The notes under the pieces: model-generated
What the model was told of the DNA's origin: nothing
Databases searched by the model: none
What the model saw: only the letters and a program-made list of their open reading frames with translations
Program-made: the position numbers and the translations under genes
From: Escherichia coli
GTDB taxonomy: Bacteria > Pseudomonadota > Gammaproteobacteria > Enterobacterales > Enterobacteriaceae
Length of the DNA stretch: 64,000 bases
Strand: one strand, 5' to 3'
Assembly (NCBI RefSeq): GCF_016026235.1
Contig: NZ_CP065613.1
Shown: piece by piece, positions 10,474-62,743 of the stretch
Position numbering within the stretch: position 1 is the first letter of the stretch
Layout: each line of letters begins with the position of its first letter

Positions 10474-11523
10474 TTATTCCCTGATTCGGATGGTGATGGC
10501 GGGCGGTACTTTCGGCTGACCAATAAAGCTGGTTCTACCGAGGCGGGAGCTGGCCGGATCGCCAAGGCGCATCCCTTTAGCCTGCTGTGGTGCCAGGCAC
10601 AGCCGTAAATCCCAAGCAAACTGGTCGCGCAGAATAAAGGAAAGGAACATGGTCAGAGGCAGGTGATTTTCGCCATCGGGTAAAAATGAGAGATAACGCT
10701 CCCGCGACAGGTTGCCAATCTGCAACAGAAATTTTCCGCTGCGATCCGGCACCCGTGCGCCGAGGGTAAAATTAACGCCAAGTATGGAGCGTCCCGGAAT
10801 ATGTCCAGCCGTTTTTCCTTTCGGATTACGTACACCAAGCCGGTTCTGGTGTGCCGGATCAATGGCGACTTTACGCAGTTGCCAGCGTTCAATGGTGACA
10901 TCCGGCAAATCAAAACAGTGCGACACCAGATTACAGATAACCTCCGGCGCGCGGCCTGGTGTTGCCAGAATTCCGGCGTAAGCCAGCATTTTGCTGTGGT
11001 TAATGGCAAGCCTGTCGCGCACGCTCTGATTACCCAGCCCGACCAGCGCGTACATGCGCTGTGAAAAGGTGTCAGTGCCGCCATTACGAAAGCAGATGTA
11101 GTAGCGGTATTTGCGCCAGGCATGATAGGCAAACTGTGTCCAGCGGTGGCTGAACAGATCGAGAAATTCTTTAAGGCCGTCTTCGTTCTGTGCGGACTCC
11201 TGCGCCATCTGATCCAGATAATAGCCCGGTAGCGGCGACTGGCTGCCGGAAAAACCAAGGAACCGGGTTTGCAGTACATACTGTCCGTTCTGGCTACGGG
11301 AAAGCGCACTCAGGTCCGTACCCGGAAAACCGATACTGGCGTCAGAGCTGAAACGCACGATCTCCCGGGCAGGCTCGGTACGCAGGGAAATATCCTGGCC
11401 CGGAGCGCCATACCGACGGTACAGCGCCTCCATCAGCACATAGAAATTGCAGTTGCGCACATCCGCCGATAACGGCGGTTTTACCGCTATATAAGGGCGT
11501 GCTGACCCATTTTCTCCTGCCAT
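10474..11523 (-). CDS. tssG: TssG baseplate protein
   Basis: 349 aa; follows tssF in conserved tssE-tssF-tssG order. Confidence 0.7.
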   Translation of the reverse strand: MAGENGSARPYIAVKPPLSADVRNCNFYVLMEALYRRYGAPGQDISLRTEPAREIVRFSSDASIGFPGTDLSALSRSQNGQYVLQTRFLGFSGSQSPLPGYYLDQMAQESAQNEDGLKEFLDLFSHRWTQFAYHAWRKYRYYICFRNGGTDTFSQRMYALVGLGNQSVRDRLAINHSKMLAYAGILATPGRAPEVICNLVSHCFDLPDVTIERWQLRKVAIDPAHQNRLGVRNPKGKTAGHIPGRSILGVNFTLGARVPDRSGKFLLQIGNLSRERYLSFLPDGENHLPLTMFLSFILRDQFAWDLRLCLAPQQAKGMRLGDPASSRLGRTSFIGQPKVPPAITIRIRE

Positions 11524-13347
11524 TCCCAGGCCTCCTGACTTTCCGTGTTGATAATTTTCAGACAGTGGTACGAATTGATGCTGGCGTAGAGAGCAAAAAA
11601 GTGCGAGAGCACTGTACCAAGAAGATAAATTTCACCTTCGCAGATAAATGGATCGGGACGTATCCACAGCGTGGTCGCCAGCCCGCGAACCGGCACGCCT
11701 TTAAACAACCTGTCAACAGGTTTGGTTTCGAGTTTTTCTATGGCATCCAGTTTCTGGCGCGACAGTCTGGCCCGCTGCGGATGGTGAGCGCCTGGCAGGT
11801 CGAAGGTCCGCAGGATCTGGATCAGTGTCTCCCTGTCCAGCAGGGAGAGGTAGTTCAGGTTCATCGCGGAAATCAGCGACCAGTGCATGTCAGCCGTCCG
11901 TGACTGGCCAGAGCGGCTGCGTTGGGCGTGTGACATTATGAAATGAGGCCACCGCCGGGTTTTTGTTGACGGCCACGCAGATATCGCCGATATGCAGCCG
12001 AGCAGGGATCATACGGTTGGTACAGATTAATGACGTGGTGATCACATCATCATTAAACCGTGAGCTGTCCGGAATGCTGCCGTCCGCATGGACAAAGGCG
12101 ATACTATGTTCAAGCCCGCGGTGAAACAGGGATGTTTTAGTCCGGTGATGCCAGTAGACGACTTCCCGCTGGCGGCTGTACTCCATCTGGTGCTGGAAAC
12201 TTTCAAATTCGGGCCAGACACGCGCCTGGCTGCCAGGGTTGGATTCAGTACCTGAAACTTTGACTTTGCTGGTGACTGTGCTTATCTGAAAAATGTCATA
12301 AGCGTCGGGATGCCGGTGGCTGGCGCGCAGCGGGTATTCCGCTATCCGTCCATCAGGCCTGACGGGTTCCGCATAATGCGTAAACAGGTTAATGGCTGGC
12401 GTACAGTGCAGACGCAGTGAGTCCTGGCGTAGCTTGATGTCGGCAGGTAACGGGCGGTTAAAGTGCAGGCGCAGCGTAAACGCGCTGACCGAGAAATCGT
12501 CCGGTAGTGGCGCAACATCGCGCAGATGGAAAAAAAAGAAGGCTTCGGGATAGCAGAAATACTCCTGGAGTACCCGATAGCCGCTGTGGACATTTTTCGG
12601 CCACGGTAGCAGGGCGTCCTGGTTTTCAAATCCGGCGGCCTCCAGCCACAGATCCGGCAGCGGCAGGCGGTACTCTCCGGCAATCAGTTCCGCATCCATC
12701 AGGCATTCGCAAAACCACAGATAAAGCTGGTGTCGGGTATAATCGTCTTCATTACCCAGCCAGAACGTTATTTTGTTCAGGTCAAGCATGGCGGGGGAGA
12801 CATTGTTATCTGCGGTAAAACTGATATCTATGATGCCTTCTTTCAGGCTGCTGGCGTTGCGGGTGTCGAGAATGCGCAGTGGTTGCAGCCAGATATCGCG
12901 CGCCAGCGTGAAATGACAGGCTACGGAAGAAACGATTTTATCATGATTGTCAGACAGCACCTTCTGAGCAGCCAGGGCGGACTTTTCTGAGCGGCTTCTG
13001 ATCAGTTCATTACGGCAGACTTGAACAGGGACTTTTAACTGATCGGTTTTGGGTTCATAGGCAATAACCGTCATGGCCGGAACTGGGCGTAAATAGTTTG
13101 CCCACAGCATACGGATTAGCCCATGGGTGAATTCGGGGAATTCGTCCTCAAGTTTCTGACGCAGGCTACCGGACATAAAGGCAAAGGCTTCCATCAGGCG
13201 CTCCACGTCCGGATCACCCTCTTTCTCGGCCAGAAAGTGGGCCAGATGTGGTTTTTCCTGCGCCAGCAGTTTGCCAAGCTGGCGAAGATAATCCAGCTCT
13301 TCGCGGTAGTAACGTTCTTCAAAAGCCACAGAGATCACTCCACACAA
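11487..13347 (-). CDS. tssF: TssF baseplate protein, apparently frameshifted (two overlapping ORFs 11890..13347 and 11487..11936)
   Basis: The 485 aa and 149 aa ORFs together give about 620 aa, the normal TssF size; the C-terminal piece carries the conserved TssF C-terminus (NLNYLSLLDRETL...). Frames differ by one nucleotide within 11890-11950. Confidence 0.6.
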
Positions 13348-27732: not shown

Positions 27733-28005
27733 TTTTTCAAATTGTGTGATTAAATAATTGAACATTAATGATGATTTATAGCATCATTATTCTATAACAT
27801 GAATAAACGGATTGAATGTGTTATGTTAAAAATGAGTTTATACGTAATAATATTGTTATTTCCCTTTCAGATTAGTGCAGCCATTACTAGCAAGGAAAGT
27901 GAGGTTGTTTCACCATTATTAATGGATGTTAATTCTTCACTAACAATGGAAAATATTTCTGAATTATCCACATCATCGGAACCATCGCAACAGGGGGTAT
28001 TTCCC

Positions 28006-29297
28006 TGAGGGATCCCCAGAAAATTTAGTAAACCATTATCATATTGGTATACCGTTGCTGTAGAACTTTCAGCCCTGCGTCAAGTGACAGTGTGTTTAGT
28101 ATGAGTGGAGAATGTCGAATCACATTCTCCGCCAGTTTTAATAACGAGATGACTCGCCTGTGCTTCACTGTATTTGCCTGATATTTATGATGTATCCCTT
28201 TGTTTTCCAGGCTGAAACCGCTTAACCACATAATGATACTGGCTAATGTTGCGATCAGACTCAATACCGTGACCCGCCCGGATGAATGACTGGCACCAAA
28301 CCGTAGTCCAAATCCCCAGCGAGGATTTTTTTCATCCCTGAAATTTTGCTCAATTTGCATTCTACGGCTGTATAATTTCATTACCTGTTTTGGCGAGAAC
28401 TCAGTACTGTTTGTGAAAATAAACCATGGTGATTTCCCGGCAGTACGAGCTTTAGCCGTCACCGATGGTCTGGTTGCTCTTTCCTTCGAGCGTTTAAATC
28501 TACGACCTTTAGGCTTACTTTTATAAAGATAAAAATGCCCTTCATGTTGTGCATTTTTATCTCGACCCAGCAGGCCTTCACCTAAATAAATTGCTGTCGT
28601 TGATGCTTTTGTGCCTGAGTCCGACACCTTTTCCCAGCCATTACCAACATTGTAATAATGATTGCCCAGTACCCGGCAAATATAGGTCCAGCCACGGGAG
28701 CGGAGCTGTTGGAACCATCGCCCCTGAAAACCGGCATCTGTAATAACAATGACATCAGTCCCGGGGGAAAAGCACTCAGCAAGCGATTCCAGAAAACGCT
28801 CATGTACATCTGCATTCGCTGTCTGTGATGATGGAACGACACAACTCATCAACGGTAAAGAACGCCCGTCACATGCCAGGCTTGCCCGCAAAAGCTGAAA
28901 ACGAGAGGCATGATAAGCACTCCAGTCAATGAGTATCACAACACGAGACATTCCCCGCGTAATCTTTTGGGTAATTCGCTGAAAAATGGTGGAAACCTCA
29001 TTTTGCAAATGTCGATTCCCCAACAGTCGATCCACCCGCTTTATTTTGTTTTTAACTGATGCCGTACCGGTTAAATGACGCCCGATACTGGTAAGTGTGA
29101 GGGAAGCGCCATTTATTACAGCATTAGTTGCGTCAATCAGTGATTTTTGACGGTAAAGATGCAAAGGGGCCAGTATATTGTTAAGGAAATTTTGGCATAA
29201 TGAACGTGCAGGCATAGTGGTGATCTCCTTGAAATTGTTAGCACAATCAATTAGATCACATCTCACTATGCCTGTCTTGTTTTCTGGGGATTCCTCA
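28006..29297 (-). mobile_element. IS4-family-like insertion sequence, copy 1 (intact), approx 1292 bp
   Basis: Terminal inverted repeats TGAGGGATCCCCAGAAAA / TGAGGAATCCCCAGAAAA; 11-bp direct repeat GGGGTATTTCC at 27994-28004 and 29298-29308; single transposase ORF. Confidence 0.8.
28025..29215 (-). CDS. IS transposase (intact)
   Basis: Track ORF 28025..29266; start placed at ATG 29215 (MPARSLCQNFLNN...) with RBS AAGGAG, matching the start in copy 2. Confidence 0.8.
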   Translation of the reverse strand: MPARSLCQNFLNNILAPLHLYRQKSLIDATNAVINGASLTLTSIGRHLTGTASVKNKIKRVDRLLGNRHLQNEVSTIFQRITQKITRGMSRVVILIDWSAYHASRFQLLRASLACDGRSLPLMSCVVPSSQTANADVHERFLESLAECFSPGTDVIVITDAGFQGRWFQQLRSRGWTYICRVLGNHYYNVGNGWEKVSDSGTKASTTAIYLGEGLLGRDKNAQHEGHFYLYKSKPKGRRFKRSKERATRPSVTAKARTAGKSPWFIFTNSTEFSPKQVMKLYSRRMQIEQNFRDEKNPRWGFGLRFGASHSSGRVTVLSLIATLASIIMWLSGFSLENKGIHHKYQANTVKHRRVISLLKLAENVIRHSPLILNTLSLDAGLKVLQQRYTNMIMVY

Positions 29298-29635
29298 GGG
29301 GTATTTCCTGTAATATGTACTCGACTTCATCCTGGCTCTGTAATGAAACGCCAGTTATTAACCGGCTGGGGGCCTGTTTTTATAATTGGGGATGATCCTT
29401 TTTCTCTGCGCTGGATGAGTGAACATCTGGAGATCCTTAAATCGCTAAATGCCCTTGGTTTGGTTGTTAATGTTGAATCAGTAGAACGAATGGAGGTATT
29501 ACAGCAGCGGGCTGATGGGTTATTGTTATTGCCAGTTATCTGCGATAATTTCGTGCAAACTCTGCAATTAAATGCTTATCCGGTATTAATCACAGAGATG
29601 GAAATATCACAATGATTAATAACATAATTACTGCA

Positions 29636-51431: not shown

Positions 51432-51866
51432 ATGCGACAAATCATCGACACCCTGGCGCAGTTGCAGCGCCTGCGGGATAAATCGGTCAAAGACAAAACC
51501 GTCGAGCTGGCAAAGCAAAAACAGATTTGCGCGGGCTATGACAACAATATCAAAGCATTAGGCTATCTGGTGGAGAAAACGTCTGCGGGCGCGGCGGCGT
51601 CGGTGGAATCGCTGAAAAACGTCAGCGGCTACAAAGGCACTTTGCGCAAGGTGATCGCCTGGCAGGAGCAGGAAAAAACGCTAGCTAACATCAAAGCCAC
51701 GCGAATGCAGAAAAACCTGACGGCGGCGGCGTGCGAAGAGAAAGTGGTGGCCCTGACGCTGGACGACAAACGCCGCGAGCAACAAGAAAGCGCCACGGCG
51801 AAAGCGCAAAAAGCGGTGGACGACATCGCCGTTCAGTGCTGGCTGCGGCATAAATTAGCGGAGTAG
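51432..51866 (+). CDS. lfiJ: Lateral flagellar FliJ homolog
   Basis: 144 aa coiled-coil protein after fliI homolog. Confidence 0.55.
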   Translation: MRQIIDTLAQLQRLRDKSVKDKTVELAKQKQICAGYDNNIKALGYLVEKTSAGAAASVESLKNVSGYKGTLRKVIAWQEQEKTLANIKATRMQKNLTAAACEEKVVALTLDDKRREQQESATAKAQKAVDDIAVQCWLRHKLAE

Positions 51867-51868
51867 CC

Positions 51869-52264
51869 ATGAAAACGGTCATCACCTTCGGCACCTTCGA
51901 TGTGTTTCATGTCGGTCATCTGCGCCTTTTACAACGCGCCCGCAAGCTGGGCGAACGGCTGCTGGTCGGCGTATTGTCCGACGCCCTGAACATCGCCAAA
52001 AAGGGCAGGGCACCGGTTTACCATCAGGATGACCGCATGGCGATCATCGCCGGGCTGGCGTGCGTGGATGGCGTATTTCTGGAGGAATCGCTGGCGCAGA
52101 AAGCGGAGTATTTGCGGGGGTACAGTGCGGATATTTTAGTGATGGGGGATGACTGGGCAGGGAAGTTTGACGATTTCTCGTGTGTCTGTGAGGTGGTCTA
52201 TTTTCCCCGTACGCCGTCGGTATCGACGACGGGGATCATTGAGGTGATTAGGGGGAATGCATGA
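51869..52264 (+). CDS. Glycerol-3-phosphate cytidylyltransferase (TagD/TarD-like)
   Basis: 131 aa; VITFGTFDVFHVGHLRLL (HxGH motif), VMGDDWAGKFD and EVVYFPRTPSVSTTGI closely parallel Bacillus TagD as I recall it. Confidence 0.8.
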   Translation: MKTVITFGTFDVFHVGHLRLLQRARKLGERLLVGVLSDALNIAKKGRAPVYHQDDRMAIIAGLACVDGVFLEESLAQKAEYLRGYSADILVMGDDWAGKFDDFSCVCEVVYFPRTPSVSTTGIIEVIRGNA

Positions 52265-52275
52265 CAAAATAAAAT

Positions 52276-52839
52276 TTATTTTTGAGCCTCAAAGTAATTG
52301 AAGAAATATGTGTTATATTTATTTGTGTCTTTTTGTTTTATTCCATTTTTGCTAAAATAACTGTTTTTGTTTGTTGATATCTCTATTTCGATAGATTTTT
52401 CTTTTTTCATATATTCAATTTTGCATTTGTAATATCTAATAACGATATTTTCCCCATCCTTTATAACTTCAAAAATATTTGCATCATGCAGTTTGTCTAA
52501 TTTTCTATTCAAAAAGAAAGCGTCTGTTACCAGCGTTTCAACCTTGTTATTATAAGAAAAAAAGAAGCTCGCTGCACCCATATCGTTGCTTTCAAAAACT
52601 TGCTGTATATTCCCTTTAAAAAGGATGGTTTGCACTATAGTTGTTGGGGAAGAGTTTTTCTTACTATGGTTACTATAAGTTTTCATATTAATAACCATAT
52701 CCTTAAGTATGTCATTTTCCCCATATACTTCAAAGGCAGGTAGGTTTTTATTATAATCTGGATACACTATTATCATGAATAATAGAATCAAGCTTCTCAA
52801 TATAATACTAATCATTTGATTTATTCTTCCGGTGATCAT
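52276..52839 (-). CDS. Hypothetical membrane/secreted protein (AT-rich insert, gene 2)
   Basis: 187 aa, N-terminal hydrophobic segment (MISIILRSLILLFMIIVY), Asn/Lys-rich; 32-nt overlap with upstream gene. Confidence 0.4.
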   Translation of the reverse strand: MITGRINQMISIILRSLILLFMIIVYPDYNKNLPAFEVYGENDILKDMVINMKTYSNHSKKNSSPTTIVQTILFKGNIQQVFESNDMGAASFFFSYNNKVETLVTDAFFLNRKLDKLHDANIFEVIKDGENIVIRYYKCKIEYMKKEKSIEIEISTNKNSYFSKNGIKQKDTNKYNTYFFNYFEAQK

Positions 52840-53629
52840 TAAAACTGCTTTGATTGCAGGTTAAAATCAATTTCCCATTATTATAACACTGCATAGGGAG
52901 AGACTTTAGTGGATTTTTATCATCCGGAAATAAGGCATCCCATCCTTGACCTTCAGAACAGGCAACCATGTATGTTGGTGAAAAAGACCAACCTATATTT
53001 ATTGACCTCATAATCGAAGTTGTCCTAATATCTGGGAAATAAGATGGATAAGTACTTTCTGTTTGTCCCCAGACATTAACGTCCTTAAAATTATCTAATA
53101 GGGATAATTTACTGGCAAAACCTTGTCCTGAATCATCACTTGCATAACTAGTGCGACAACCATACATAACAAACATAGCGTTATTTGACCAGTTAAAATC
53201 AATTGAATCCCATCCTCCGATTATGTTCATTTGTTGTGGGTATTTAGGCACGGAAGGTGTATTTACAGAGTCTGAGGTTGTAGGACCATGAATTGGCCCC
53301 CCATGTGAGAATAAACTGACTTCTTTAACTTTTGCTTTGGTTATACCTCCATTCTTGTTTATAAAGGTTTCTAATATTTCTTTGATTTGATTAAATGTGT
53401 TAATTGATAAATGGTAAACTATCTGTGTTTCTTTTTTATACTCGGGGGAGTAAAGGATGTTGAAATAACGCGTCAGACATGCTTCTTCAAAAATAGAACG
53501 TCGGCTATCACCGGACTCATCAACCCAAAATAATAGAAACAATTCCTTTGGGCGAGATATTTTTTGAGTGACAATGTTGTTTTGTTTCTGGCTTGTTGTA
53601 CCGGAAGTTACTTTTTTATCATAAGTCAT
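52808..53629 (-). CDS. Hypothetical protein (AT-rich insert, gene 1)
   Basis: 273 aa; candidate catalytic residues in SLFSHGGPIHG (approx 105-115) and MYGCRTSY (approx 155-162); no family recognised. Confidence 0.4.
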   Translation of the reverse strand: MTYDKKVTSGTTSQKQNNIVTQKISRPKELFLLFWVDESGDSRRSIFEEACLTRYFNILYSPEYKKETQIVYHLSINTFNQIKEILETFINKNGGITKAKVKEVSLFSHGGPIHGPTTSDSVNTPSVPKYPQQMNIIGGWDSIDFNWSNNAMFVMYGCRTSYASDDSGQGFASKLSLLDNFKDVNVWGQTESTYPSYFPDIRTTSIMRSINIGWSFSPTYMVACSEGQGWDALFPDDKNPLKSLPMQCYNNGKLILTCNQSSFNDHRKNKSND

Positions 53630-53844
53630 GTTATCGTTTATGCTCTATCAATTTTAACAAAATGTTAAATTACGCAATAATTGTTATAGTGTGTAACCTA
53701 TATTTATGATAAGCAATATGTTTAGCAAGATTCAGGTTTTTTCAGAATTCATAAAGATCGCTCCCCCACAATCTACGACTTTTACCGATTCACCAGTCAT
53801 AAAGCGATGAGTTTGAAATCAGAGGGTAGTTAAGTGCGTTGTTC

Positions 53845-53945
53845 GTGCCAGATGCGGCGTAAACGCCTTAACCGGCCTACAAATCCTTACAAATTCAATA
53901 CATTGCAAGGTCGCGTAGGCCTGATAAGCGAAGCGCATCAGGCAC
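53845..53945. repeat. REP elements
   Basis: GCCAGATGCGGCGTAAACGCCTTAACCGGCCTAC and GTAGGCCTGATAAGCGAAGCGCATCAGGC palindromes. Confidence 0.6.
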
Positions 53946-53954
53946 TTGCGCGGT

Positions 53955-54767
53955 TTACCCAAACGCCTCTACAATCACCATCGCCGCCCGTTCTCCCGCT
54001 TTGCCATCCATAAACGCATCGCAATAATGATGGCGAATTTCCGCCAGCTTCGTCTGCACCGCCCCCCAGTCAAACGCCTCTGACAGCAAATAACGCAGTT
54101 CCGCGACATTATGAGCCACCGGCAATATTTCGCGAATCCGCTGGTCGGCGCTCTCTGCCGTGGAGTAACTTTTCTCACCGTCGAGCAAATCATTCATGCC
54201 CGGAAAGTCGAGCAGGATCACCCGCTTATCAACGTGGATAGCATCGAAAATAAAACCGCTGTTATCGGTCAGCACGTAATCGGCCTTTGCCAGTAGCGCC
54301 AGCGTGTGGCGGGCGGAGTCGGTGCGCTGTTTTAAGTGCCTGCGCGCCAGGGCCAGCGATGCGGCTTCTTCCGGGCGTGAGCAGGTGCCGTGGTGCAGTT
54401 TGCAAATCAGGTTCACATCACCGCTTAAGCGGCCCAATTTTTCTGCCCAGTGGGGCAGGGAGCTTAGTGCGCCAAACGTTGGGGCGTAGAGCACCGTAGG
54501 TTTACGGTCATCCAGTTCGATATTTCTCGGCAACGCGCGATCAAACGTGCCGTTATGCCAGGCGTCGAAGCGCGGGTTGCCGACCACTTTTGCGCTGCCG
54601 AAATGTTCCAGCGCCTGCTGGCTGTAGTGGCTGTAACACAAAATGCGCTGATAAAAACGGTTCCAGTCGGCGTGGTTCCACGTCTCTTTAGCTAAGCCGT
54701 ACATAGCGCGGACGTTCACCGCTGCCAGGCCATTGAGTATGGCGTGTGGTAGGGGCTGACCAGGCAT
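53955..54767 (-). CDS. CDP-glycerol glycerophosphotransferase (TagF/TagB-like) C-terminal region
   Basis: 270 aa with TagF-family blocks GNPRFD, VLYAPTF, KLHH, YVLTDNSGFIFDAIHVDKRVILLD. Confidence 0.65.
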   Translation of the reverse strand: MPGQPLPHAILNGLAAVNVRAMYGLAKETWNHADWNRFYQRILCYSHYSQQALEHFGSAKVVGNPRFDAWHNGTFDRALPRNIELDDRKPTVLYAPTFGALSSLPHWAEKLGRLSGDVNLICKLHHGTCSRPEEAASLALARRHLKQRTDSARHTLALLAKADYVLTDNSGFIFDAIHVDKRVILLDFPGMNDLLDGEKSYSTAESADQRIREILPVAHNVAELRYLLSEAFDWGAVQTKLAEIRHHYCDAFMDGKAGERAAMVIVEAFG

Positions 54768-56392
54768 TTCACTCGCAGGCCGTGTGCCTGCATTGCCGAT
54801 AAGTGCATTCCTTTAAGCTGCGGGTCGTCGATGCTTTTTAGCGTTGCCAGCATCTCATCAAGAAACGGTTTAAACACGCGGTCGTTGATCACCAGCGTGC
54901 AGCTCTGCCCCTGCGCCTGTAGCGCGGTGATGATTGGGCGGTAGAGCGCGTAGTGGAAGGAGGTTTCCATAAAAAAGCCGATGGTGTCGGCGATGGGTAA
55001 TGCGGATGGCTTTGTGGCTACGGGTAACTTATTGAAATAGTGACCAATGTTGTCAGTCGCTTTTTTCTCTATATCGCTAAAGCCCGGTCGCTGATAACTA
55101 AGGCTCGGATAACAGGCCAGCCATTTGTCGGCGCGTAGCAGCGGCTGCCAGCAGGCTTCCAGCGAGTGCTCATCGTTGCTCATCTGCTGCGCCAGTTGCG
55201 GGTAGTAGCGGCTGTTCACCAGATAAGCGCATACCTTGCGGCAGTCCCGCGCGTGCACCAGCCCCGGCAAACTTTTTAGCATCGTTCCCTGCGAAATTTC
55301 GCCGCCAAGGATCATCACCTGCCAGGGAATTTTCGCCAGGCTCGCCAGCAGCGTGTTCAGCACCTGAATATGTTTCTCCTGCTTGAGAATAACCGCGTCA
55401 TCTTCCAGCAGCAGGTAGTTTTGCCAGCTGTGCTGTTGCGCCAGGCGCAGCGCCTGCAAGTGTGAATGGCGGCGGCCCCGTTGACCGTTTTCATCTTCAT
55501 TGGCGGCAAGGCGGGTGATCTTCTCGGGTGGAATATGCAGCAGTGCCAGTTCTTCACGGATCTGCTGTAAGCGATCCGGGCGTTTATCCAGATTCACGAT
55601 GACCACCTGATCAATCGCCTGATGGTTGATTGCCTGGTGATGAGTGGCGTTATGCAGACTCAGATAAGCGTTGCGTAGCAGCGGATCGCTGACGATGTCG
55701 CTCAGTTCGGCGTTTACAGGCGTGCTGGCCCCGAGAATAAAGTCTTTATCAAAGGTGTTGTGGCTGTGCGAGATACACAGAATCGTGCGCTCGCCGGGCA
55801 ACTGCAGCGGGTTAACGCTGAAATTGTTGGTGAAACTTTTCTCTTCGCTCAGATTGCAATCGTCATCGTAACGGTGCTTTTTCAGGTAGTTACAGTGATA
55901 GCAAAAGGTGCCGTTGAGGATGTTATGCGGGCCAAAGCTGCGGCTTTGAAAGATACGGTTGATATGGCTGTACCAGATGGGGATCTGGTCAGAACCGGAG
56001 ATGAGCGCCCGGTGTTTTTGCATTATGGCGATGGTGTAAGAGATTTTATCTGCCGGGTAGTAGTCGTCGTCATCCATGCAGAGGATATATTCGCCGCGCG
56101 CCAGTTCGTTGAGCATATTGCGTTTTTTGCCCAGCGGCAGTTTTTCCGGGTGATGGATGTAGCGGATGTTGAAGGACTCCGGCGTGCCATTGGTCAGGCG
56201 GTCGATGATGTGTTGATGGCTTTGCGGGGAGTCGTCGAGGATGACCAGTTCGCGGTGATCTGCCGGGTAGTCCTGATAGCGGTACATGTAGAGCAGGTAC
56301 GGCAGGAATGTGGCACGGTTCCAAGTTGGCGTGACGACGCTCACGAAGGGTTTTTCGCGGTGAGTAGCGAGTGTTTTGATGATGGTTTGCAT
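54716..56392 (-). CDS. Multidomain glycosyltransferase (GT2-like N-terminus, GT25-like middle, TagF-like tail)
   Basis: 558 aa; GT2-type start (VSVVTPTWNRATFLP...ILDDSP, DDD), central VVIVNLDKRPDRL block; overlaps the downstream TagF-like ORF by 52 nt in another frame. Confidence 0.6.
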   Translation of the reverse strand: MQTIIKTLATHREKPFVSVVTPTWNRATFLPYLLYMYRYQDYPADHRELVILDDSPQSHQHIIDRLTNGTPESFNIRYIHHPEKLPLGKKRNMLNELARGEYILCMDDDDYYPADKISYTIAIMQKHRALISGSDQIPIWYSHINRIFQSRSFGPHNILNGTFCYHCNYLKKHRYDDDCNLSEEKSFTNNFSVNPLQLPGERTILCISHSHNTFDKDFILGASTPVNAELSDIVSDPLLRNAYLSLHNATHHQAINHQAIDQVVIVNLDKRPDRLQQIREELALLHIPPEKITRLAANEDENGQRGRRHSHLQALRLAQQHSWQNYLLLEDDAVILKQEKHIQVLNTLLASLAKIPWQVMILGGEISQGTMLKSLPGLVHARDCRKVCAYLVNSRYYPQLAQQMSNDEHSLEACWQPLLRADKWLACYPSLSYQRPGFSDIEKKATDNIGHYFNKLPVATKPSALPIADTIGFFMETSFHYALYRPIITALQAQGQSCTLVINDRVFKPFLDEMLATLKSIDDPQLKGMHLSAMQAHGLRVKCLVSPYHTPYSMAWQR

Positions 56393-57092
56393 GATATGTT
56401 TACGAAGTAGATAAGGCCGGGAAAAACCGGCCTGAAAGCGTTAGCAAGGTAGCAGCGAAAACGCATAAAGCAGCGGCTCTGCGCAACATTCAGCCTGAAT
56501 TTGTTGGCGAATCAGCAGCGCATTTTCACTCTCTCGCCAGCGTTCAAACATGGCAAAGAGGGCGAAAATATCCTCCTGCCGCAGCGGAGAACCATCCAGC
56601 GTCCATAAACTGATTAACGTGCGGAGGAGATAAAAATCGCACACCAGCGGGAAATAATCCGCCCCGTCAGTCTGCCCAATCATATCGTGGTAAACGCGGT
56701 AAATCAGCCAGTTACGCATCATCCAGGGCGCGGTGGCAAAATGCTGTTGCCAGGTGGTTTGCCACTGCGTCTGAAGCTGCTGTTGTAACAGGGCTTCGCT
56801 GTTGGCGTCATGCAGCGTCAGTAAAGTAACCTGCAACGGCAGCGAGGCTTTGCGCGGGCTTTCCGGCAAAATCGACCAGTCAAACGCACAACCGCCGAGC
56901 AGCGTCATCAACTGGCGCGCCAGCTGTGGCACGGGTGGGAGCTGGGCGTACTGTGCCTGTAGCGTACCTTTTTTCGCATGATCGGCCAGCGCCTGTGGCA
57001 GCGTCGTCAAACGGGCCAGGATGTCTCCGTCTCTGCCCGGCATTTTGCTGGCGCGGGAGAGCAAAATCCCGACAGCATACAGGGAAAGCTCC

Positions 57093-58383
57093 TGAGGAAT
57101 CCCCAGAAAACAAGACAGGCATAGTGAGATGTGATCTAATTGATTGTGCTAACAATTTCAAGGAGATCACCACTATGCCTGCACGTTCATTATGCCAAAA
57201 TTTCCTTAACAATATACTGGCCCCTTTGCATCTTTACCGTCAAAAATCACTGATTGACGCAACTAATGCTGTAATAAATGGCGCTTCCCTCACACTTACC
57301 AGTATCGGGCGTCATTTAACCGGTACGGCATCAGTTAAAAACAAAATAAAGCGGGTGGATCGACTGTTGGGGAATCGACATTTGCAAAATGAGGTTTCCA
57401 CCATTTTTTAGCGAATTACCCAAAAGATTACGCGGGGAATGTCTCGTGTTGTGATACTCATTGACTGGAGTGCTTATCATGCCTCTCGTTTTCAGCTTTT
57501 GCGGGCAAGCCTGGCATGTGACGGGCGTTCTTTACCGTTGATGAGTTGTGTCGTTCCATCATCACAGACAGCGAATGCAGATGTACATGAGCGTTTTCTG
57601 GAATCGCTTGCTGAGTGCTTTTCCCCCGGGACTGATGTCATTGTTATTACAGATGCCGGTTTTCAGGGGCGATGGTTCCAACAGCTCCGCTCCCGTGGCT
57701 GGACCTATATTTGCCGGGTACTGGGCAATCATTATTACAATGTTGGTAATGGCTGGGAAAAGGTGTCGGACTCAGGCACAAAAGCATCAACGACAGCAAT
57801 TTATTTAGGTGAAGGCCTGCTGGGTCGAGATAAAAATGCACAACATGAAGGGCATTTTTATCTTTATAAAAGTAAGCCTAAAGGTCGTAGATTTAAACGC
57901 TCGAAGGAAAGAGCAACCAGACCATCGGTGACGGCTAAAGCTCGTACTGCCGGGAAATCACCATGGTTTATTTTCACAAACAGTACTGAGTTCTCGCCAA
58001 AACAGGTAATGAAATTATACAGCCGTAGAATGCAAATTGAGCAAAATTTCAGGGATGAAAAAATCCTCGCTGGGGATTTGGACTACGGTTTGGTGCCAGT
58101 CATTCATCCGGGCGGGTCACGGTATTGAGTCTGATCGCAACATTAGCCAGTATCATTATGTGGTTAAGCGGTTTCAGCCTGGAAAACAAAGGGATACATC
58201 ATAAATATCAGGCAAATACAGTGAAGCACAGGCGAGTCATCTCGTTATTAAAACTGGCGGAGAATGTGATTCGACATTCTCCACTCATACTAAACACACT
58301 GTCACTTGACGCAGGGCTGAAAGTTCTACAGCAACGGTATACCAATATGATAATGGTTTACTAAATTTTCTGGGGATCCCTCA
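57093..58383 (+). mobile_element. IS4-family-like insertion sequence, copy 2 (mutated), inverted relative to copy 1
   Basis: Same inverted repeats as copy 1; 11-bp direct repeat GGGAAAGCTCC at 57082-57092 and 58385-58395. Confidence 0.8.
57175..58364 (+). pseudogene. IS transposase pseudogene (nonsense codon plus 1-bp deletion)
   Basis: Relative to copy 1: CAG to TAG at approx 57410 and an A6 run where copy 1 has A7 (approx 58066-58071); track shows three ORF pieces. Confidence 0.75.
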
Positions 58384-58802
58384 GGGGAAAGCTCCGGGGT
58401 TAAATCACGGAGCGTGAGGGTACTCAAAATCACCTGGTTTACTATCGCATCGCGCGCGGAAAGCTCTGCGGAATTATCTTCCACAGGGCGGTAGGTGAGC
58501 TGTAAATCAAAGGCCCTGACATCGTTGAGCACCGCTTCGCAGCTGGCAATATCGGTCAATGACAGGCTCAGGCGAATCTCGTTTTTCCACACCTTGCGGA
58601 CGTATAAAGGCGAACCGGGGTGACGCGCTAAAAATTTGCGCACGTATTCCGGTTCGTAACATTCAATAAAACTCATAGGTGGCTTCCAGTCTTTAATGCT
58701 GTGCAGGATATGCAATAAGCGTGCCGGGGATTTTTGTAATTAAAAACAAGGGATTGGAAATCAGGCGGAAAATCCATTTCCGCTATGGGGAAGGTATTCG
58801 CG

Positions 58803-59231
58803 TTATTCCTGATAGAGAAAATCTGCTTCGCTGCCTAAAAACGACTGAATAAATTCATACTGGCGAATCAACAGCTCGCCGTTTTTATCGTTGTAGGCTT
58901 TGCAGCGTTCCGCTTTTTGCTCAAGGCGTTGCCACAACTGCTGTGCTGCCGCTTTTTGTACCGCAGGAAGCCAGGCAAATACCTGCGCCAGACCGTCACG
59001 ATTTACGCTAACACCGAGCATTTTCAGCAGGCTGTGCCGTTGATGGCTATGTCCATGCAACTGCTCATAGTGATGCATTATCTCCTCGTTTACTGCCAGC
59101 AGCTCCTCGCTGGCGCGGCGAATCATGCAGATCCGCTGGCGCTGGAGACGTTCGCGCAGGGAATCATACAGCGCGTCGTCGTCACGAATTCCCTGCAGCA
59201 ACGCCTTCACCTGTTGTAACCGGATACTCAC
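58803..59231 (-). CDS. lfgN: Lateral flagellar chaperone FlgN-like
   Basis: 142 aa helical protein downstream of flgM homolog; mainly positional. Confidence 0.5.
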   Translation of the reverse strand: MSIRLQQVKALLQGIRDDDALYDSLRERLQRQRICMIRRASEELLAVNEEIMHHYEQLHGHSHQRHSLLKMLGVSVNRDGLAQVFAWLPAVQKAAAQQLWQRLEQKAERCKAYNDKNGELLIRQYEFIQSFLGSEADFLYQE

Positions 59232-59243
59232 TTCATCGGCCTC

Positions 59244-59522
59244 TTAGTTCTGGAAAAAACTCAGCATGTCGCTGGCTAACTGTTCGGTGTTCACTTGCGG
59301 GCTGCCGGAGGCCAGCATCGCCTGCATTTGCGCCACTTTGTCGCTGTCGATATCGCTCTCTTGCTGGTCGTTCAGCGTTTGCTGGGCAGACTGCAATCCC
59401 GCCTGAGTAATGTCGTCGGCGCTCAGCGCCGTGGTGGTGGTCGCCGTGCTTTTGGGCGGCTGGCTGGCGCCTGCCGTCGTGGCTGTCGGGCGATTGCCTG
59501 GCATAGTCGGGGTGATTTTCAT
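59244..59522 (-). CDS. lfgM: Anti-sigma-28 factor FlgM-like
   Basis: 92 aa, Ser/Thr/Gln-rich with FlgM-like C-terminal helix; between flgA and flgN homologs. Confidence 0.55.
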   Translation of the reverse strand: MKITPTMPGNRPTATTAGASQPPKSTATTTTALSADDITQAGLQSAQQTLNDQQESDIDSDKVAQMQAMLASGSPQVNTEQLASDMLSFFQN

Positions 59523-61191: not shown

Positions 61192-61904
61192 TGAATACCC
61201 TGGCGCTGAATGCGCAATCGCCGCAACCCACCGCCACGGCGGAAAGCAATAATGTGGCGGCCAGCGACACGACAAGCAGCAGCGATAGCTCGCCCGTCGA
61301 TACTTTCCTGACGCTGTTTGTCGCCGAGATCCAAAACCAGGACCCGACTGACCCGACCGACGCCACCGAATATATCGACCAGCTTTCGTCGATGGCGCAG
61401 GTGGCGATGATGGAAGAGATGAGTGTGCAGGCCAACACCAACGCGGTGCTGATGAGCAACATCCAGGTGATGGCGCTCGGTAACCTGGTGGGCGACGACA
61501 TTATGGTGCAGACCACCGCCTTGCAGGTGAGCGACCAGACCATAAATGGTCGCGCTACGCTGGACGACGCCTGTACCACCGCCGATCTCCACTTTACCGA
61601 TGCCGCAGGCGATGACTACACCGTCTCGCTGATCCCGGAAGGCAGTTCGTCCGTCGGGCCAGGGCAGGTGGATTTCTCGGTGAACCCTGCCGATTACGGT
61701 ATCCCGCCGGGCGATTACGACGTTTCGGTGGTCACCAATACCGGGGAAGAAGAGGTGCCGATTGAAGTGTCCGGCGAAGTGGAAGATGTGCGCATCCCGC
61801 TCGACGGCAGCTCTCCGGTGCTCAACGTTGCAGGCGTGGGCGAAGTGCCGTTCACCATGATTAGCCAGTTTGGCGTACCCGATGCCGACAGTAATGTAGC
61901 GTGA
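61191..61904 (+). CDS. lfgD: Lateral flagellar hook-cap protein FlgD homolog
   Basis: 237 aa; FLTLFVAEIQNQDPTDP motif typical of FlgD. Confidence 0.75.
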   Translation: MNTLALNAQSPQPTATAESNNVAASDTTSSSDSSPVDTFLTLFVAEIQNQDPTDPTDATEYIDQLSSMAQVAMMEEMSVQANTNAVLMSNIQVMALGNLVGDDIMVQTTALQVSDQTINGRATLDDACTTADLHFTDAAGDDYTVSLIPEGSSSVGPGQVDFSVNPADYGIPPGDYDVSVVTNTGEEEVPIEVSGEVEDVRIPLDGSSPVLNVAGVGEVPFTMISQFGVPDADSNVA

Positions 61905-61919
61905 TGTCCGGTGCCAAAT

Positions 61920-62008
61920 AGCCTGATGCGCTTCGCTTATCAGGCCAACACCAAAGTTATCGCCACCAGCACGCAGCTCGATGACGCGCTGTTCCAGGCA
62001 ATGTAATG
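61920..62008 (+). other. REP-like palindrome plus approx 20-codon coding remnant where lfgE is expected
   Basis: GCCTGATGCGCTTCGCTTATCAGGCC followed by an in-frame ...NTKVIATSTQLDDALFQAM-stop that overlaps the lfgF ATG as TAATG. Confidence 0.45.
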
Positions 62009-62743
62009 GACCGTTTGATTTATACCGCCCTGAGCGGTGCTTCTCAGACCCTGTACGAGCAGCAGATTAGCGCCAACAACCTGGCGAACGTCAACACCAA
62101 CGGTTTTCGCGCCGATATGGCGATGGCGACCAACGACAAGGTGAAAGGCAGCGGCTTCGACACGCGCTATATGGCGCAGGAAGGGGCCAGCGGCGTGAAC
62201 GACAGCACGGGTGTAGCGGAGAAAACCGAACGCCCGCTGGACGTGGCGATTCAGGGCGCGGGTTACATTGCGGTGCAGGATAAAAACGGCAACGAAGTCT
62301 ATACCCGCAACGGCAACATTCAGCAGGACGACCAGGGGCAACTGACTATCGACGGCAATCTGGTGCTGGGGGATAACGGGCCGATCATTCTGCCGCCGAA
62401 CGCCATTGCTTCGTTTGGCAGCGACGGCACGCTGTCGGTGACGCCCGATGACGGCGACGTAACCGCGACGATGGATATCGACCGCCTGAAGCTGGTGGAT
62501 ATCCCGGTCGCTAACCTGGCGAAAAATCCTGAAGGGATGCTGGTGACTAGCGACGGCATTCCGGCCCAGCGCGATGAAAACATCAAAGTCAGCGGCGGTT
62601 TTCTCGAAGGCAGCAACGTCTCGGCGGTGAGCGAGATGATGTCGTCCATCGCCATGAACCGCCAGTTTGAAGCGCAGATCAAAATGATGAAAACCGCCGA
62701 AGATATCAGCGACGCGGGCAACCGCTTATTGCGCGGCTCGTAA
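62006..62743 (+). CDS. lfgF: Lateral flagellar rod protein FlgF homolog
   Basis: 245 aa; MDRLIYTALSGASQTLYEQQISANNLANVNTNGFRAD. Confidence 0.8.
   Translation: MDRLIYTALSGASQTLYEQQISANNLANVNTNGFRADMAMATNDKVKGSGFDTRYMAQEGASGVNDSTGVAEKTERPLDVAIQGAGYIAVQDKNGNEVYTRNGNIQQDDQGQLTIDGNLVLGDNGPIILPPNAIASFGSDGTLSVTPDDGDVTATMDIDRLKLVDIPVANLAKNPEGMLVTSDGIPAQRDENIKVSGGFLEGSNVSAVSEMMSSIAMNRQFEAQIKMMKTAEDISDAGNRLLRGS

What the first reader, a model, noticed from the sequence alone, without database searches (positions are those of the whole stretch)
54700..54780. Possible frameshift splitting one multidomain glycosyltransferase into two ORFs
TagF-family sequence blocks are distributed across the tail of the 558 aa ORF and the 270 aa ORF that overlaps it by 52 nt in another frame. 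One ancestral gene of roughly 820 aa (GT2, GT25 and TagF-like domains) interrupted by an indel is the simplest explanation. Alternatively they are two overlapping genes.
Basis: inference. Interest (0 to 1): 0.4.

Follow-up and report, generated by a model that had tools for sequence, protein, structure and literature searches.

The report
Frameshifted lateral-flagella glycosyltransferase pseudogene
The two overlapping ORFs are one 812-codon, three-domain glycosyltransferase gene of the E. coli second (Flag-2) flagellar locus, broken by a real, inherited one-base deletion; it is an ordinary pseudogene in a locus that is decaying in this lineage.

Summary
ORFs 54716-56392(-) (558 aa) and 53955-54767(-) (270 aa) overlap by 52 nt in different frames. 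The cause is a single missing base at + strand 54741-54742: GG here, GGG in the 99.8%-identical sister strain. Restoring it gives one 812-aa ORF, collinear with the 812/814-aa single genes found in about 1,277 complete E. coli genomes and with 807-857-aa orthologues in other Enterobacterales.

The deletion is not a sequencing error. The same allele is in at least seven independent assemblies, some differing by 1-3 SNPs.

The gene sits in variable region 1 of Flag-2, next to a TagD-like cytidylyltransferase and the FliB-like methylase LafV. In this lineage LafV is cut by ISEc60 and the hook gene lfgE is deleted. Other E. coli lineages carry independent lesions in the same gene. Interest is low.

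The parts
53955..56392 (-). Whole glycosyltransferase pseudogene. It is 2,438 nt; adding one base gives 2,439 nt, or 812 codons plus a stop. It belongs to the Flag-2 VR1 'GT2-1' type.
   Evidence: inserting any base after gene nt 1652 gives one 812-aa ORF. The orthologues WP_021556464.1 (814 aa) and WP_063266241.1 (812 aa) are single CDSs.
54716..56392 (-). ORF1, 558 aa: 551 native residues followed by 7 out-of-frame residues (YSMAWQR) and TGA.
   Evidence: The exact protein is in NCBI as STL99655.1.
53955..54767 (-). ORF2, 270 aa: 9 out-of-frame residues (MPGQPLPHA) followed by native residues 552-812.
   Evidence: The exact protein is in NCBI as STL99658.1. Only a weak Shine-Dalgarno-like sequence precedes its ATG.
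54741..54742 (.). Site of the 1-bp deletion. The window has GG on the + strand (CC on the coding strand). The sister strain FDAARGOS_943 has GGG (CCC); other E. coli have CCT on the coding strand (AGG on the + strand).
   Evidence: Alignments. The deletion allele is present in L006-L012 and absent from L001-L004.
55643..56359 (-). Domain 1, residues ~12-250: GT2-family GT-A glycosyltransferase with a DDDD motif at residues 107-110.
   Evidence: PF00535 at 67.6 bits, E 1.6e-18. The model has pLDDT mostly above 85 here. The motif is conserved in 41-42 of 42 aligned homologues.
55028..55609 (-). Domain 2, residues ~262-455: GT25-like GT-A domain with motifs NLDKRPDR (267-274) and EDD (330-332).
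   Evidence: Foldseek top hit is COLGALT1/GLT25D1 at E 2e-17. PF01755 matches 5 of 15 homologous domains. For this protein itself the hit is only E 0.022.
54740..54991 (-). TagF-like domain 3, first part (residues 468-551, strands 468-475, 498-502, 527-530, 541-546), left in ORF1.
   Evidence: Secondary structure of the model. Stand-alone homologues start at this point.
53958..54740 (-). TagF-like domain 3, remainder (residues 552-812): the last three strands of the N-subdomain plus the whole C-subdomain. It carries invariant H667 (KLHHGT), D705 and D710. This part is left in ORF2.
51869..52264 (+). TagD-like glycerol-3-phosphate cytidylyltransferase (131 aa), the probable supplier of CDP-glycerol to domain 3.
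   Evidence: PF01467 at E 2e-19 and TIGR01518 at E 3.6e-32, which is below its equivalog cut-off. The same neighbour occurs in other E. coli and in Enterobacter kobei.
56442..57092 (-). C-terminal fragment of lafV, the FliB-like flagellin lysine N-methylase, cut by ISEc60.
   Evidence: NF038110 matches profile positions 208-368 only. The gene is an intact 310-aa CDS in the sister strain.
57092..58386 (+). ISEc60 (IS4-like) inserted in lafV. Its transposase is itself disabled by a nonsense change at 57409 and an A7 to A6 change at 58057-58063.
58386..58676 (-). N-terminal fragment of lafV, on the far side of the IS.
   Evidence: Coordinate mapping to FDAARGOS_943 lafV.
61905..61938 (.). Deletion junction where the Flag-2 hook gene lfgE (flgE) is missing. 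flgD ends at 61904. Only about 69 nt of the flgE 3' end remain before flgF (62006-62743).
   Evidence: The sister strain has the same arrangement.

Best explanation
The two ORFs are the halves of a single gene inactivated by a genuine, vertically inherited 1-bp deletion: C3 to C2 on the coding strand, window + strand 54741-54742, codon 551 of 812.

The ancestral product is a three-module enzyme encoded in variable region 1 of the Flag-2 (lateral flagella) locus. Module 1 is a GT2 GT-A glycosyltransferase. Module 2 is a GT25-like GT-A glycosyltransferase; its tandem arrangement with module 1 resembles collagen galactosyltransferase COLGALT1. Module 3 is a TagF-like GT-B CDP-polyol phosphotransferase.

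By inference from the domain families and from the neighbouring genes (TagD-like cytidylyltransferase, LafV methylase), the intact enzyme builds a short glycan carrying glycerol-phosphate on the lateral flagellin.

The frameshift leaves a 558-aa product with modules 1 and 2 and four of the seven N-subdomain strands of module 3. The nucleotide-binding half, with invariant H667, D705 and D710, is stranded in a second frame without a good start signal, so module 3 is destroyed.

The lesion is one of several in a Flag-2 locus that is already defunct in this IS-rich E. coli lineage. The hook gene lfgE is deleted and lafV is cut by ISEc60. This looks like relaxed selection and pseudogene decay, not a regulatory device.

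What is shown: the deletion, its inheritance, the single-gene state of orthologues, the domain architecture and the position of the break. What is inferred: substrate, donor and loss of function.
For: - **One indel only.** The window differs from three orthologues by a single internal indel across the whole gene, and repair gives an 812-aa ORF.
- **Single-gene orthologues.** About 1,277 complete E. coli genomes hold at least 80% of the region, and the loci examined annotate a single 812/814-aa CDS. Orthologues of 807-857 aa occur in Escherichia, Citrobacter, Enterobacter, Atlantibacter, Leminorella and Plesiomonas. They are single genes next to lafV in every Flag-2 locus inspected.
- **Real mutation.** The exact 558-aa and 270-aa proteins are found on at least 14 contigs. 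These include GCA_900449985.1, GCA_000805835.1, GCA_902503985.1 and Logan assemblies of four different sequencing runs. All carry the deletion, and the isolates differ from each other by 1-3 SNPs.
- **Assembly not error-ridden.** The window shows only 4 single-base indels and about 45 SNPs against the sister strain over 64 kb.
- **Domain split.** The model has mean pLDDT 86.2 with domain 3 at residues 468-812. Residue 551 lies between strands 541-546 and 557-563.
- **Decaying locus.** Independent lesions hit the same gene elsewhere: ISEc60 in the sister strain, A7 to A6 in one lineage and T6 to T5 in another.
Against: - No reads, transcript or protein data were available, so loss of function is inferred, not measured.
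- Natural two-module relatives of 457-496 aa exist ('GT2-3' in PMC6993521). The 558-aa product might therefore keep GT-A activity.
- The TagD neighbour is not universal among orthologues. It is absent within 5-6 kb in Atlantibacter and Leminorella, which weakens the CDP-glycerol inference.
- The TagF catalytic-base position (H444) aligns to a variable Y/H column.
Confidence: 0.93

Rival explanations
1. Sequencing or assembly artefact: the gene is intact in the organism and one base of a short homopolymer was miscalled.
For: The site is a short C/G run. One other homopolymer difference in the window, A6 versus A7 in the IS at 58057-58063, is not shared by the otherwise identical NCTC assembly, so at least one indel in the window could be an error.
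Against: The identical deletion is present in at least seven independent assemblies from different sequencing runs. Isolates differ by 1-3 SNPs. The run is only 3 bases long. The window has only 4 single-base indels per 64 kb against its sister strain.
Confidence: 0.02
2. Two genuine overlapping genes: a split enzyme whose two polypeptides are both made, by translational coupling through the 52-nt overlap, and work separately or reassemble.
For: Both ORFs are long and open. GT-B enzymes consist of two subdomains, and modular two-domain relatives exist. Another lineage is split closer to the domain boundary, into 425/440 + 338 aa.
Against: The break is inside the N-subdomain sheet, 4 strands on one side and 3 on the other, not at a domain boundary. 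The split is confined to one small clade: 0 of 5,426 complete genomes carry this allele. The 99.8%-identical sister strain has the uninterrupted frame at this site. ORF2 begins with 9 non-native residues and has only a weak ribosome-binding sequence. The rest of the flagellar system is already broken.
Confidence: 0.03
3. Programmed -1 ribosomal frameshift or transcriptional slippage, or phase variation, that still yields full-length enzyme in part of the population.
For: There is a 97-nt stretch (54716-54812) in which both frames are open. Frameshift-prone tracts do exist elsewhere in this gene in other lineages (A7 and T6).
Against: There is no X XXY YYZ heptamer in the dual-open stretch. The frameshift is not conserved in any orthologue. 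A C2/C3 run is too short for appreciable slippage. All isolates of the clade carry the same C2 state.
Confidence: 0.02

Closest known systems
Flag-2 VR1 glycosyltransferase 'GT2-1' of De Maayer et al. 2020 (PMC6993521). Examples are the E. coli proteins WP_021556464.1 (814 aa) and WP_063266241.1 (812 aa).
   Same: Same locus position, between lfiJ/tagD and lafV/lfgN. Similar length (average 828 aa in the paper's table). Identity is 92-94%. It shares the GT2 domain and the TagD and LafV neighbours.
   Different: The window copy carries a 1-bp deletion at codon 551 and is split into 558-aa and 270-aa ORFs. The paper records only the GT2 domain. The GT25-like and TagF-like modules are shown here.
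TagF / TarL / Cps3D / Bcs3 family of CDP-polyol phosphotransferases (PF04464; PDB 3l7i, 8va1, 8qoy, 8a0c)
   Different: Here the module is the C-terminal part of a flagellar-locus enzyme in a Gram-negative organism, fused to two GT-A domains. The Pfam score of this protein is at or below the gathering threshold (19.5-23.0 bits against 22.1). The TagF H444 position is not conserved. Nothing shows polymerase activity rather than single-transfer activity.
Human collagen galactosyltransferase COLGALT1/GLT25D1 (GT25; PDB 9evk, 8zgc)
   Same: The best Foldseek match covers about 545 columns, that is two tandem GT-A domains. The 'INL..R.DR' and 'EDD' motifs of the catalytic GT25 domain align with residues 267-274 and 330-332.
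   Different: Identity is 12-16%. The sequence-profile match is not significant on its own (E 0.013). TM-score is only about 0.4, because the domains are oriented differently. Here the first GT-A domain keeps a DxD-type motif, and a third domain is present.
Two-module Flag-2 glycosyltransferases ('GT2-3', about 474 aa; for example P0130 of Lelliottia)
   Same: Homologous to modules 1 and 2 at 43-48% identity. They occupy the same position beside lafV in Flag-2.
   Different: They end naturally after module 2. The window's 558-aa product instead ends in a partial third domain. In many of these relatives the module 2 motifs are degraded.
C. difficile 630 flagellin type A glycan locus (CD0240-CD0244; PMC4441256)
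   Same: It offers a precedent for a flagellin glycan with a phosphodiester-linked substituent. That glycan is made by a GT2-type initiating enzyme plus a cytidylyltransferase-like protein and a glycerophosphotransferase-like protein (CD0244).
   Different: The proteins are separate, the substituent is different (phospho-N-methyl-threonine), and there is no close sequence relationship. This is an analogy only.

Membership tests
Frameshift pseudogene (unitary gene disrupted by an indel) | Close orthologues are a single uninterrupted ORF. | tested here: met
   Single CDSs of 812 and 814 aa in E. coli GPEC1186 and XH990. About 1,277 complete genomes hold the region. Single genes of 807-857 aa occur in six other genera.
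Frameshift pseudogene (unitary gene disrupted by an indel) | One indel accounts for the frame change, and repairing it restores a full-length collinear ORF. | tested here: met
   There is a single gap at gene nt 1653. The repaired ORF is 812 aa.
Frameshift pseudogene (unitary gene disrupted by an indel) | The break interrupts a folded domain rather than separating domains. | tested here: met
   Residue 551 lies between strands 541-546 and 557-563 of the GT-B N-subdomain. TagF aligns over 321 residues spanning both parts.
Frameshift pseudogene (unitary gene disrupted by an indel) | The lesion is real in the organism and not an assembly error. | tested here: met
   The same allele is in at least 7 independent assemblies or runs, with 1-3 SNP differences between isolates. 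Raw reads were not inspected.
TagF-like CDP-glycerol/ribitol phosphotransferase (PF04464, GT-B) | Pfam PF04464 match above the gathering score. | tested here: inconclusive
   ORF2 alone scores 23.0 bits against a cut-off of 22.1. The repaired protein scores 19.5 bits and the isolated domain 21.9 bits. All 41 relatives of the domain match, the best at 7.8e-16.
TagF-like CDP-glycerol/ribitol phosphotransferase (PF04464, GT-B) | GT-B fold superposable on TagF or TarL. | tested here: met
TagF-like CDP-glycerol/ribitol phosphotransferase (PF04464, GT-B) | Conserved active-site histidines (S. epidermidis TagF H444 and H584). | tested here: inconclusive
   The H584 equivalent, H667, is invariant in 41 of 41 relatives. 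The H444-aligned position is H549 in Escherichia, but that column and the adjacent one vary between Y and H across the family.
TagF-like CDP-glycerol/ribitol phosphotransferase (PF04464, GT-B) | Uses a CDP-activated polyol donor. | not testable with these tools
   The support is indirect. A TagD-like cytidylyltransferase is adjacent here and in Enterobacter kobei, but not within 5-6 kb in Atlantibacter or Leminorella.
Glycosyltransferase family 2 (PF00535) | Pfam match above the gathering score, plus a DxD motif. | tested here: met
   67.6 bits against a cut-off of 23.3. The DDDD motif at 107-110 is conserved in 41-42 of 42 homologues.
Glycosyltransferase family 25 (PF01755) | Pfam match above the gathering score. 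| tested here: not met
   15.1 bits against a cut-off of 24, E 0.022, covering only 41 residues. Five of 15 homologous middle domains do match, the best at 1e-8.
Glycosyltransferase family 25 (PF01755) | GT-A fold and motifs like a solved GT25 enzyme. | tested here: met
Programmed ribosomal frameshift gene | The frameshift is conserved among orthologues and has a slippery site. | tested here: not met
   No orthologue shares the shift. There is no X XXY YYZ heptamer in the 97-nt dual-open stretch.
Flag-2 VR1 flagellin-modification gene set (De Maayer 2020) | Located between lfiJ and lfgN of a Flag-2 locus, with LafV and/or TagD. | tested here: met
   The window order is fliH-fliI-fliJ-tagD ... 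GT-lafV-(IS)-flgN-flgM-flgA. This matches the paper's description.

The most novel reading that the evidence does not exclude
The repeated, independent lesions in this gene in E. coli all spare the two GT-A modules and remove or break only the TagF-like module. They are A7 to A6 at codon ~444, T6 to T5 at codon ~474, C3 to C2 at codon 551, and ISEc60 at codon ~670.

Natural two-module paralogues exist. The lesions could therefore reflect selection, or low-rate homopolymer switching, that converts a three-module flagellin-modifying enzyme into a two-module one. That would drop a glycerol-phosphate decoration from the lateral flagellin rather than being neutral decay.

A further speculative thread: the tandem GT-A part is most similar to the collagen hydroxylysine galactosyltransferase, and the gene is always adjacent to a flagellin lysine methylase. 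This hints at lysine-directed chemistry.
Probability: 0.08. Interest if true: 0.45.

Novelty: already known. Interest (0 to 1): 0.13.

Why it matters
For annotation, the two 'putative glycosyltransferase' CDSs deposited for this lineage (STL99655.1 and STL99658.1) should be a single frameshifted pseudogene.

Biologically, this is one more marker of Flag-2 decay in an IS-rich E. coli clade and has no wider consequence.

The useful by-product is the domain map of the commonest Flag-2 glycosyltransferase: GT2, GT25-like and TagF-like modules. That map explains why a TagD-like cytidylyltransferase travels with it in several of the loci inspected here (E. coli, Enterobacter kobei). It also predicts a glycerol-phosphate-containing glycan on lateral flagellin in strains where the system is intact, which can be tested by mass spectrometry.

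Tried and rejected
- **Sequencing error.** Rejected on the evidence of independent assemblies and the low indel density of the window.
- **Programmed frameshift or phase variation.** No slippery heptamer, no conservation, and a run of only 2-3 bases.
- **GT25 by sequence.** PF01755 is below threshold for this protein, and the profile-versus-PDB match is not significant on its own (E 0.013). The domain is called 'GT25-like' on fold evidence only.
- **TagD co-occurrence as proof of donor.** It is not universal: no PF01467 gene lies within 5-6 kb in Atlantibacter or Leminorella, and the Plesiomonas homologue lies beside different genes (an NTP_transferase, a GATase and a PEP-utilising enzyme; a MotB-like gene is at the locus edge).
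- **TagF H444 equivalence.** The aligned column is variable, so no claim is made.
- **Literature.** Searches for functional work on this enzyme or on LafV found only the comparative-genomics papers.
- **Second split gene (tssF).** The exact look-up of the 485-aa fragment found nothing, so whether that frameshift is real is undecided.
- **Intact versus broken copies.** I did not count how many of the ~1,277 complete-genome copies are intact. Only the window's allele (0 genomes) and the A6 allele (2 genomes) were counted.
Full report
**Observation.** The window holds ORF 54716..56392(-) of 558 aa and ORF 53955..54767(-) of 270 aa. They share 52 nt (54716-54767) and are in different frames; the ORF2 ATG is at gene index 1625, frame 2 relative to ORF1. 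The description is accurate.

**Cause of the split.** I aligned the 2,438-nt stretch 53955-56392 (minus strand) with the orthologous genes of three E. coli genomes. These were XH990, GPEC1186 and FDAARGOS_943, found by megablast and retrieved with their annotation.
- The only internal gap is one base missing from the window after gene nt 1652.
- On the coding strand the window reads ACACGCC-ATAC.
- The 99.8%-identical FDAARGOS_943 reads ACACGCCCATAC, and the more distant strains read ACACGCCTGCGC.
- On the + strand this is GG at 54741-54742 where the sister strain has GGG.
- Inserting any base there gives one ORF of 812 aa.
- ORF1 is therefore 551 native residues plus YSMAWQR. ORF2 is MPGQPLPHA plus native residues 552-812.

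**Are orthologues one gene?** Yes.
- 1,277 of 5,426 complete E. coli genomes hold at least 80% of the region. In the two intact loci examined it is annotated as a single CDS, 814 aa in XH990 and 812 aa in GPEC1186.
- A protein search found full-length relatives of 807-857 aa in E. coli, E. ruysiae, E. albertii, E. fergusonii, Citrobacter, Enterobacter, Atlantibacter, Leminorella, Dryocola and Plesiomonas.
- In Atlantibacter, Citrobacter, Enterobacter kobei and Leminorella the gene is a single ORF immediately downstream of the FliB-like methylase gene, inside a Flag-2 cluster.
- None of the 5,426 complete genomes carries the window's allele. The best match is the sister strain, at 98.8% because of the one-base gap.

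**Real mutation or artefact?** The mutation is real.
- The exact 558-aa and 270-aa sequences exist in public collections as STL99655.1 and STL99658.1, on 8 contigs in the collection's count; the contig index finds the 558-aa product on at least 14 contigs.
- These come from three NCBI assemblies (GCA_900449985.1, GCA_000805835.1, GCA_902503985.1) and Logan assemblies of at least four separate runs.
- All seven retrieved loci carry the deletion string. Some differ from the window by 1-3 SNPs, so they are different isolates of one clade.
- Across the 64 kb the window differs from FDAARGOS_943 by about 45 substitutions, four single-base indels and one 9-bp repeat unit. That is not the pattern of an error-prone assembly.
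- Raw reads could not be inspected.

**What the intact gene encodes.**
- *Pfam.* It gives a clear GT2 domain at residues 18-131 (E 1.6e-18). It gives a borderline PF04464 (TagF-type) match in ORF2, at 23.0 bits against a cut-off of 22.1. On the repaired protein that match is at residues 603-726 and scores 19.5 bits.
- *Structure model.* An AlphaFold2 model of the repaired protein, built with 44 homologues, has mean pLDDT 86.2. It shows three domains: 12-250, 262-455 and 468-812, with a low-confidence linker at 459-466.
- *Extent of domain 3.* An exhaustive HMMER search with residues 455-812 found 817 relatives. They include stand-alone proteins of 357-389 aa that align from domain position ~16 to ~356, equivalent to residues 470-810.
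- *Family of domain 3.* A profile of 41 of these relatives hits Cps3D (6.6e-16), TagF (6.5e-14) and TarL (7.6e-10). All 41 match PF04464.
- *Active-site residues.* H667 (KLHHGT) aligns with TagF H584 and is invariant, as are D705 and D710. The position aligned with TagF H444 is H549 here, but that column varies between Y and H across the family.
- *Middle domain.* It matches PF01755 (GT25) only at E 0.022 in this protein. Five of 15 homologous middle domains match, the best at 1e-8. The NL..R.DR and EDD motifs align with the catalytic domain of COLGALT1. I call it GT25-like, not a demonstrated member.

**Where the break falls.** Residue 551 lies between strands 541-546 and 557-563 of the N-terminal Rossmann-like half of domain 3. 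Four strands stay in ORF1. Three strands and the whole nucleotide-binding half go to ORF2.

**Rival mechanisms.** There is no X XXY YYZ slippery site in the 97 nt where both frames are open. The ORF2 ATG has only a weak Shine-Dalgarno-like sequence. Programmed frameshifting and a functional two-gene arrangement are both unlikely.

**Context.**
- The gene lies in variable region 1 of the Flag-2 (lateral flagella) locus. It sits between fliH-fliI-fliJ plus a TagD-like cytidylyltransferase (51869-52264) and lafV-flgN-flgM-flgA.
- De Maayer et al. (PMC6993521) catalogue this region. 'GT2-1' averages 828 aa and occurs in 222 strains of 8 genera. TagD occurs in 235 strains. LafV methylases occur in 342 of 592 loci. 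They predict flagellin glycosylation, possibly with teichoic-acid-like components.
- The fused TagF-like module shown here gives a direct reason for the TagD association. That association is not universal, however.
- The C. difficile type A flagellin glycan is a loose precedent for a phosphodiester-linked substituent (PMC4441256).

**State of the locus in this lineage.**
- lafV is cut by an ISEc60 copy at 57092-58386. Its own transposase carries a nonsense change and a homopolymer frameshift.
- The hook gene lfgE is deleted between flgD and flgF, at junction 61905-61938.
- The sister strain lacks the frameshift but has ISEc60 inserted in the same glycosyltransferase gene. It also has an IS in flgH and a stop in flgL.
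- Two further E. coli lineages carry independent frameshifts in this gene: A7 to A6 at nt ~1333, giving 425/440 + 338 aa, and T6 to T5 at nt 1423, giving 500 + 312 aa.
- The picture is ordinary gene decay under relaxed selection. The same paper reports that loss, deletion or transposase disruption of individual Flag-2 genes is common in Enterobacterales (22% of strains lack at least one conserved gene), and cites a frameshift that inactivates Flag-2 in strain 042.

**Verdict.** This is an already known kind of feature: a frameshift pseudogene in a catalogued gene family. Interest is low.

The only mildly novel thread is that all four independent lesions spare the two GT-A modules, and natural two-module paralogues exist. 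This could mean selective loss of the TagF-like module. With four events this cannot be separated from chance or from the placement of homopolymers.

Noticed in passing
window 11487-13347 (-): This is a second split gene of the same type. The type VI secretion baseplate gene tssF is 613 aa and intact in FDAARGOS_943. In the window it is broken into ORFs of 485 aa (11890..13347) and 149 aa (11487..11936), overlapping by 47 nt. The cause is one extra A at 11892, which is not in a homopolymer. An exact look-up of the 485-aa product found nothing, so whether this is real or an error is open.
   Followed up: partly
window 61905-61938: The Flag-2 hook gene lfgE (flgE, ~1.2 kb) and the REP array upstream of it are deleted. 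flgD ends at 61904, a REP-like element sits at the junction, and only about 69 nt of the flgE 3' end precede flgF. FDAARGOS_943 has the same arrangement. The lateral flagellar system cannot be functional in this lineage.
   Followed up: yes
window 57092-58386: An ISEc60 (IS4-like) copy is inserted in the lafV methylase gene. Its transposase has a CAG to TAG nonsense change at 57409 and an A7 to A6 frameshift at 58057-58063. The A6 state is the only difference, over the 7.7 kb compared (51716-59391), between the window and the NCTC assembly GCA_900449985.1. It may therefore be an assembly error or a very recent change.
   Followed up: partly
window 28003-29301: Another ISEc60 copy sits here, absent at this site in FDAARGOS_943. 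Conversely, the sister strain has IS21, IS600, IS1, IS5 and two ISEc60 copies at sites that are empty in the window. IS positions differ widely between two genomes that are 99.9% identical.
   Followed up: no
window 52276-53900: An AT-rich block (31-36% GC against ~57% in the flanks) lies between tagD and the glycosyltransferase gene. It holds two ORFs of 187 and 273 aa; the second has a weak DUF4347 match. The content of this block differs between E. coli strains: XH990 has four other small ORFs there. It looks like horizontally acquired cargo of unknown function.
   Followed up: no
L021 3405 and L023 3417 (other E. coli lineages): There are independent frameshifts in the same gene: A7 to A6 at gene nt ~1333 (425/440 + 338 aa; the 338-aa fragment is listed in 188 blocks of the collection) and T6 to T5 at nt 1423 (500 + 312 aa). 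The first leaves a nearly complete TagF-like domain as a separate ORF.
   Followed up: partly
alignment A3 (middle domains of homologues): In the natural two-module relatives (457-496 aa) the GT25-type motifs NLD.R.DR and EDD are largely replaced, for example by LLLDAS or LILDDR. This suggests their middle domain may be catalytically inactive.
   Followed up: no
L017 6001-8628; protein P0108: Some homologues carry a KpsC/KpsS-type Capsule_synth domain (PF05159) in place of the TagF-like module. The C-terminal module of this enzyme family is therefore interchangeable.
   Followed up: no
window 1307: There is a 9-bp tandem unit (CTGCTGTTT) copy-number difference from the sister strain inside the type VI secretion region. 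It is in-frame in length.
   Followed up: no
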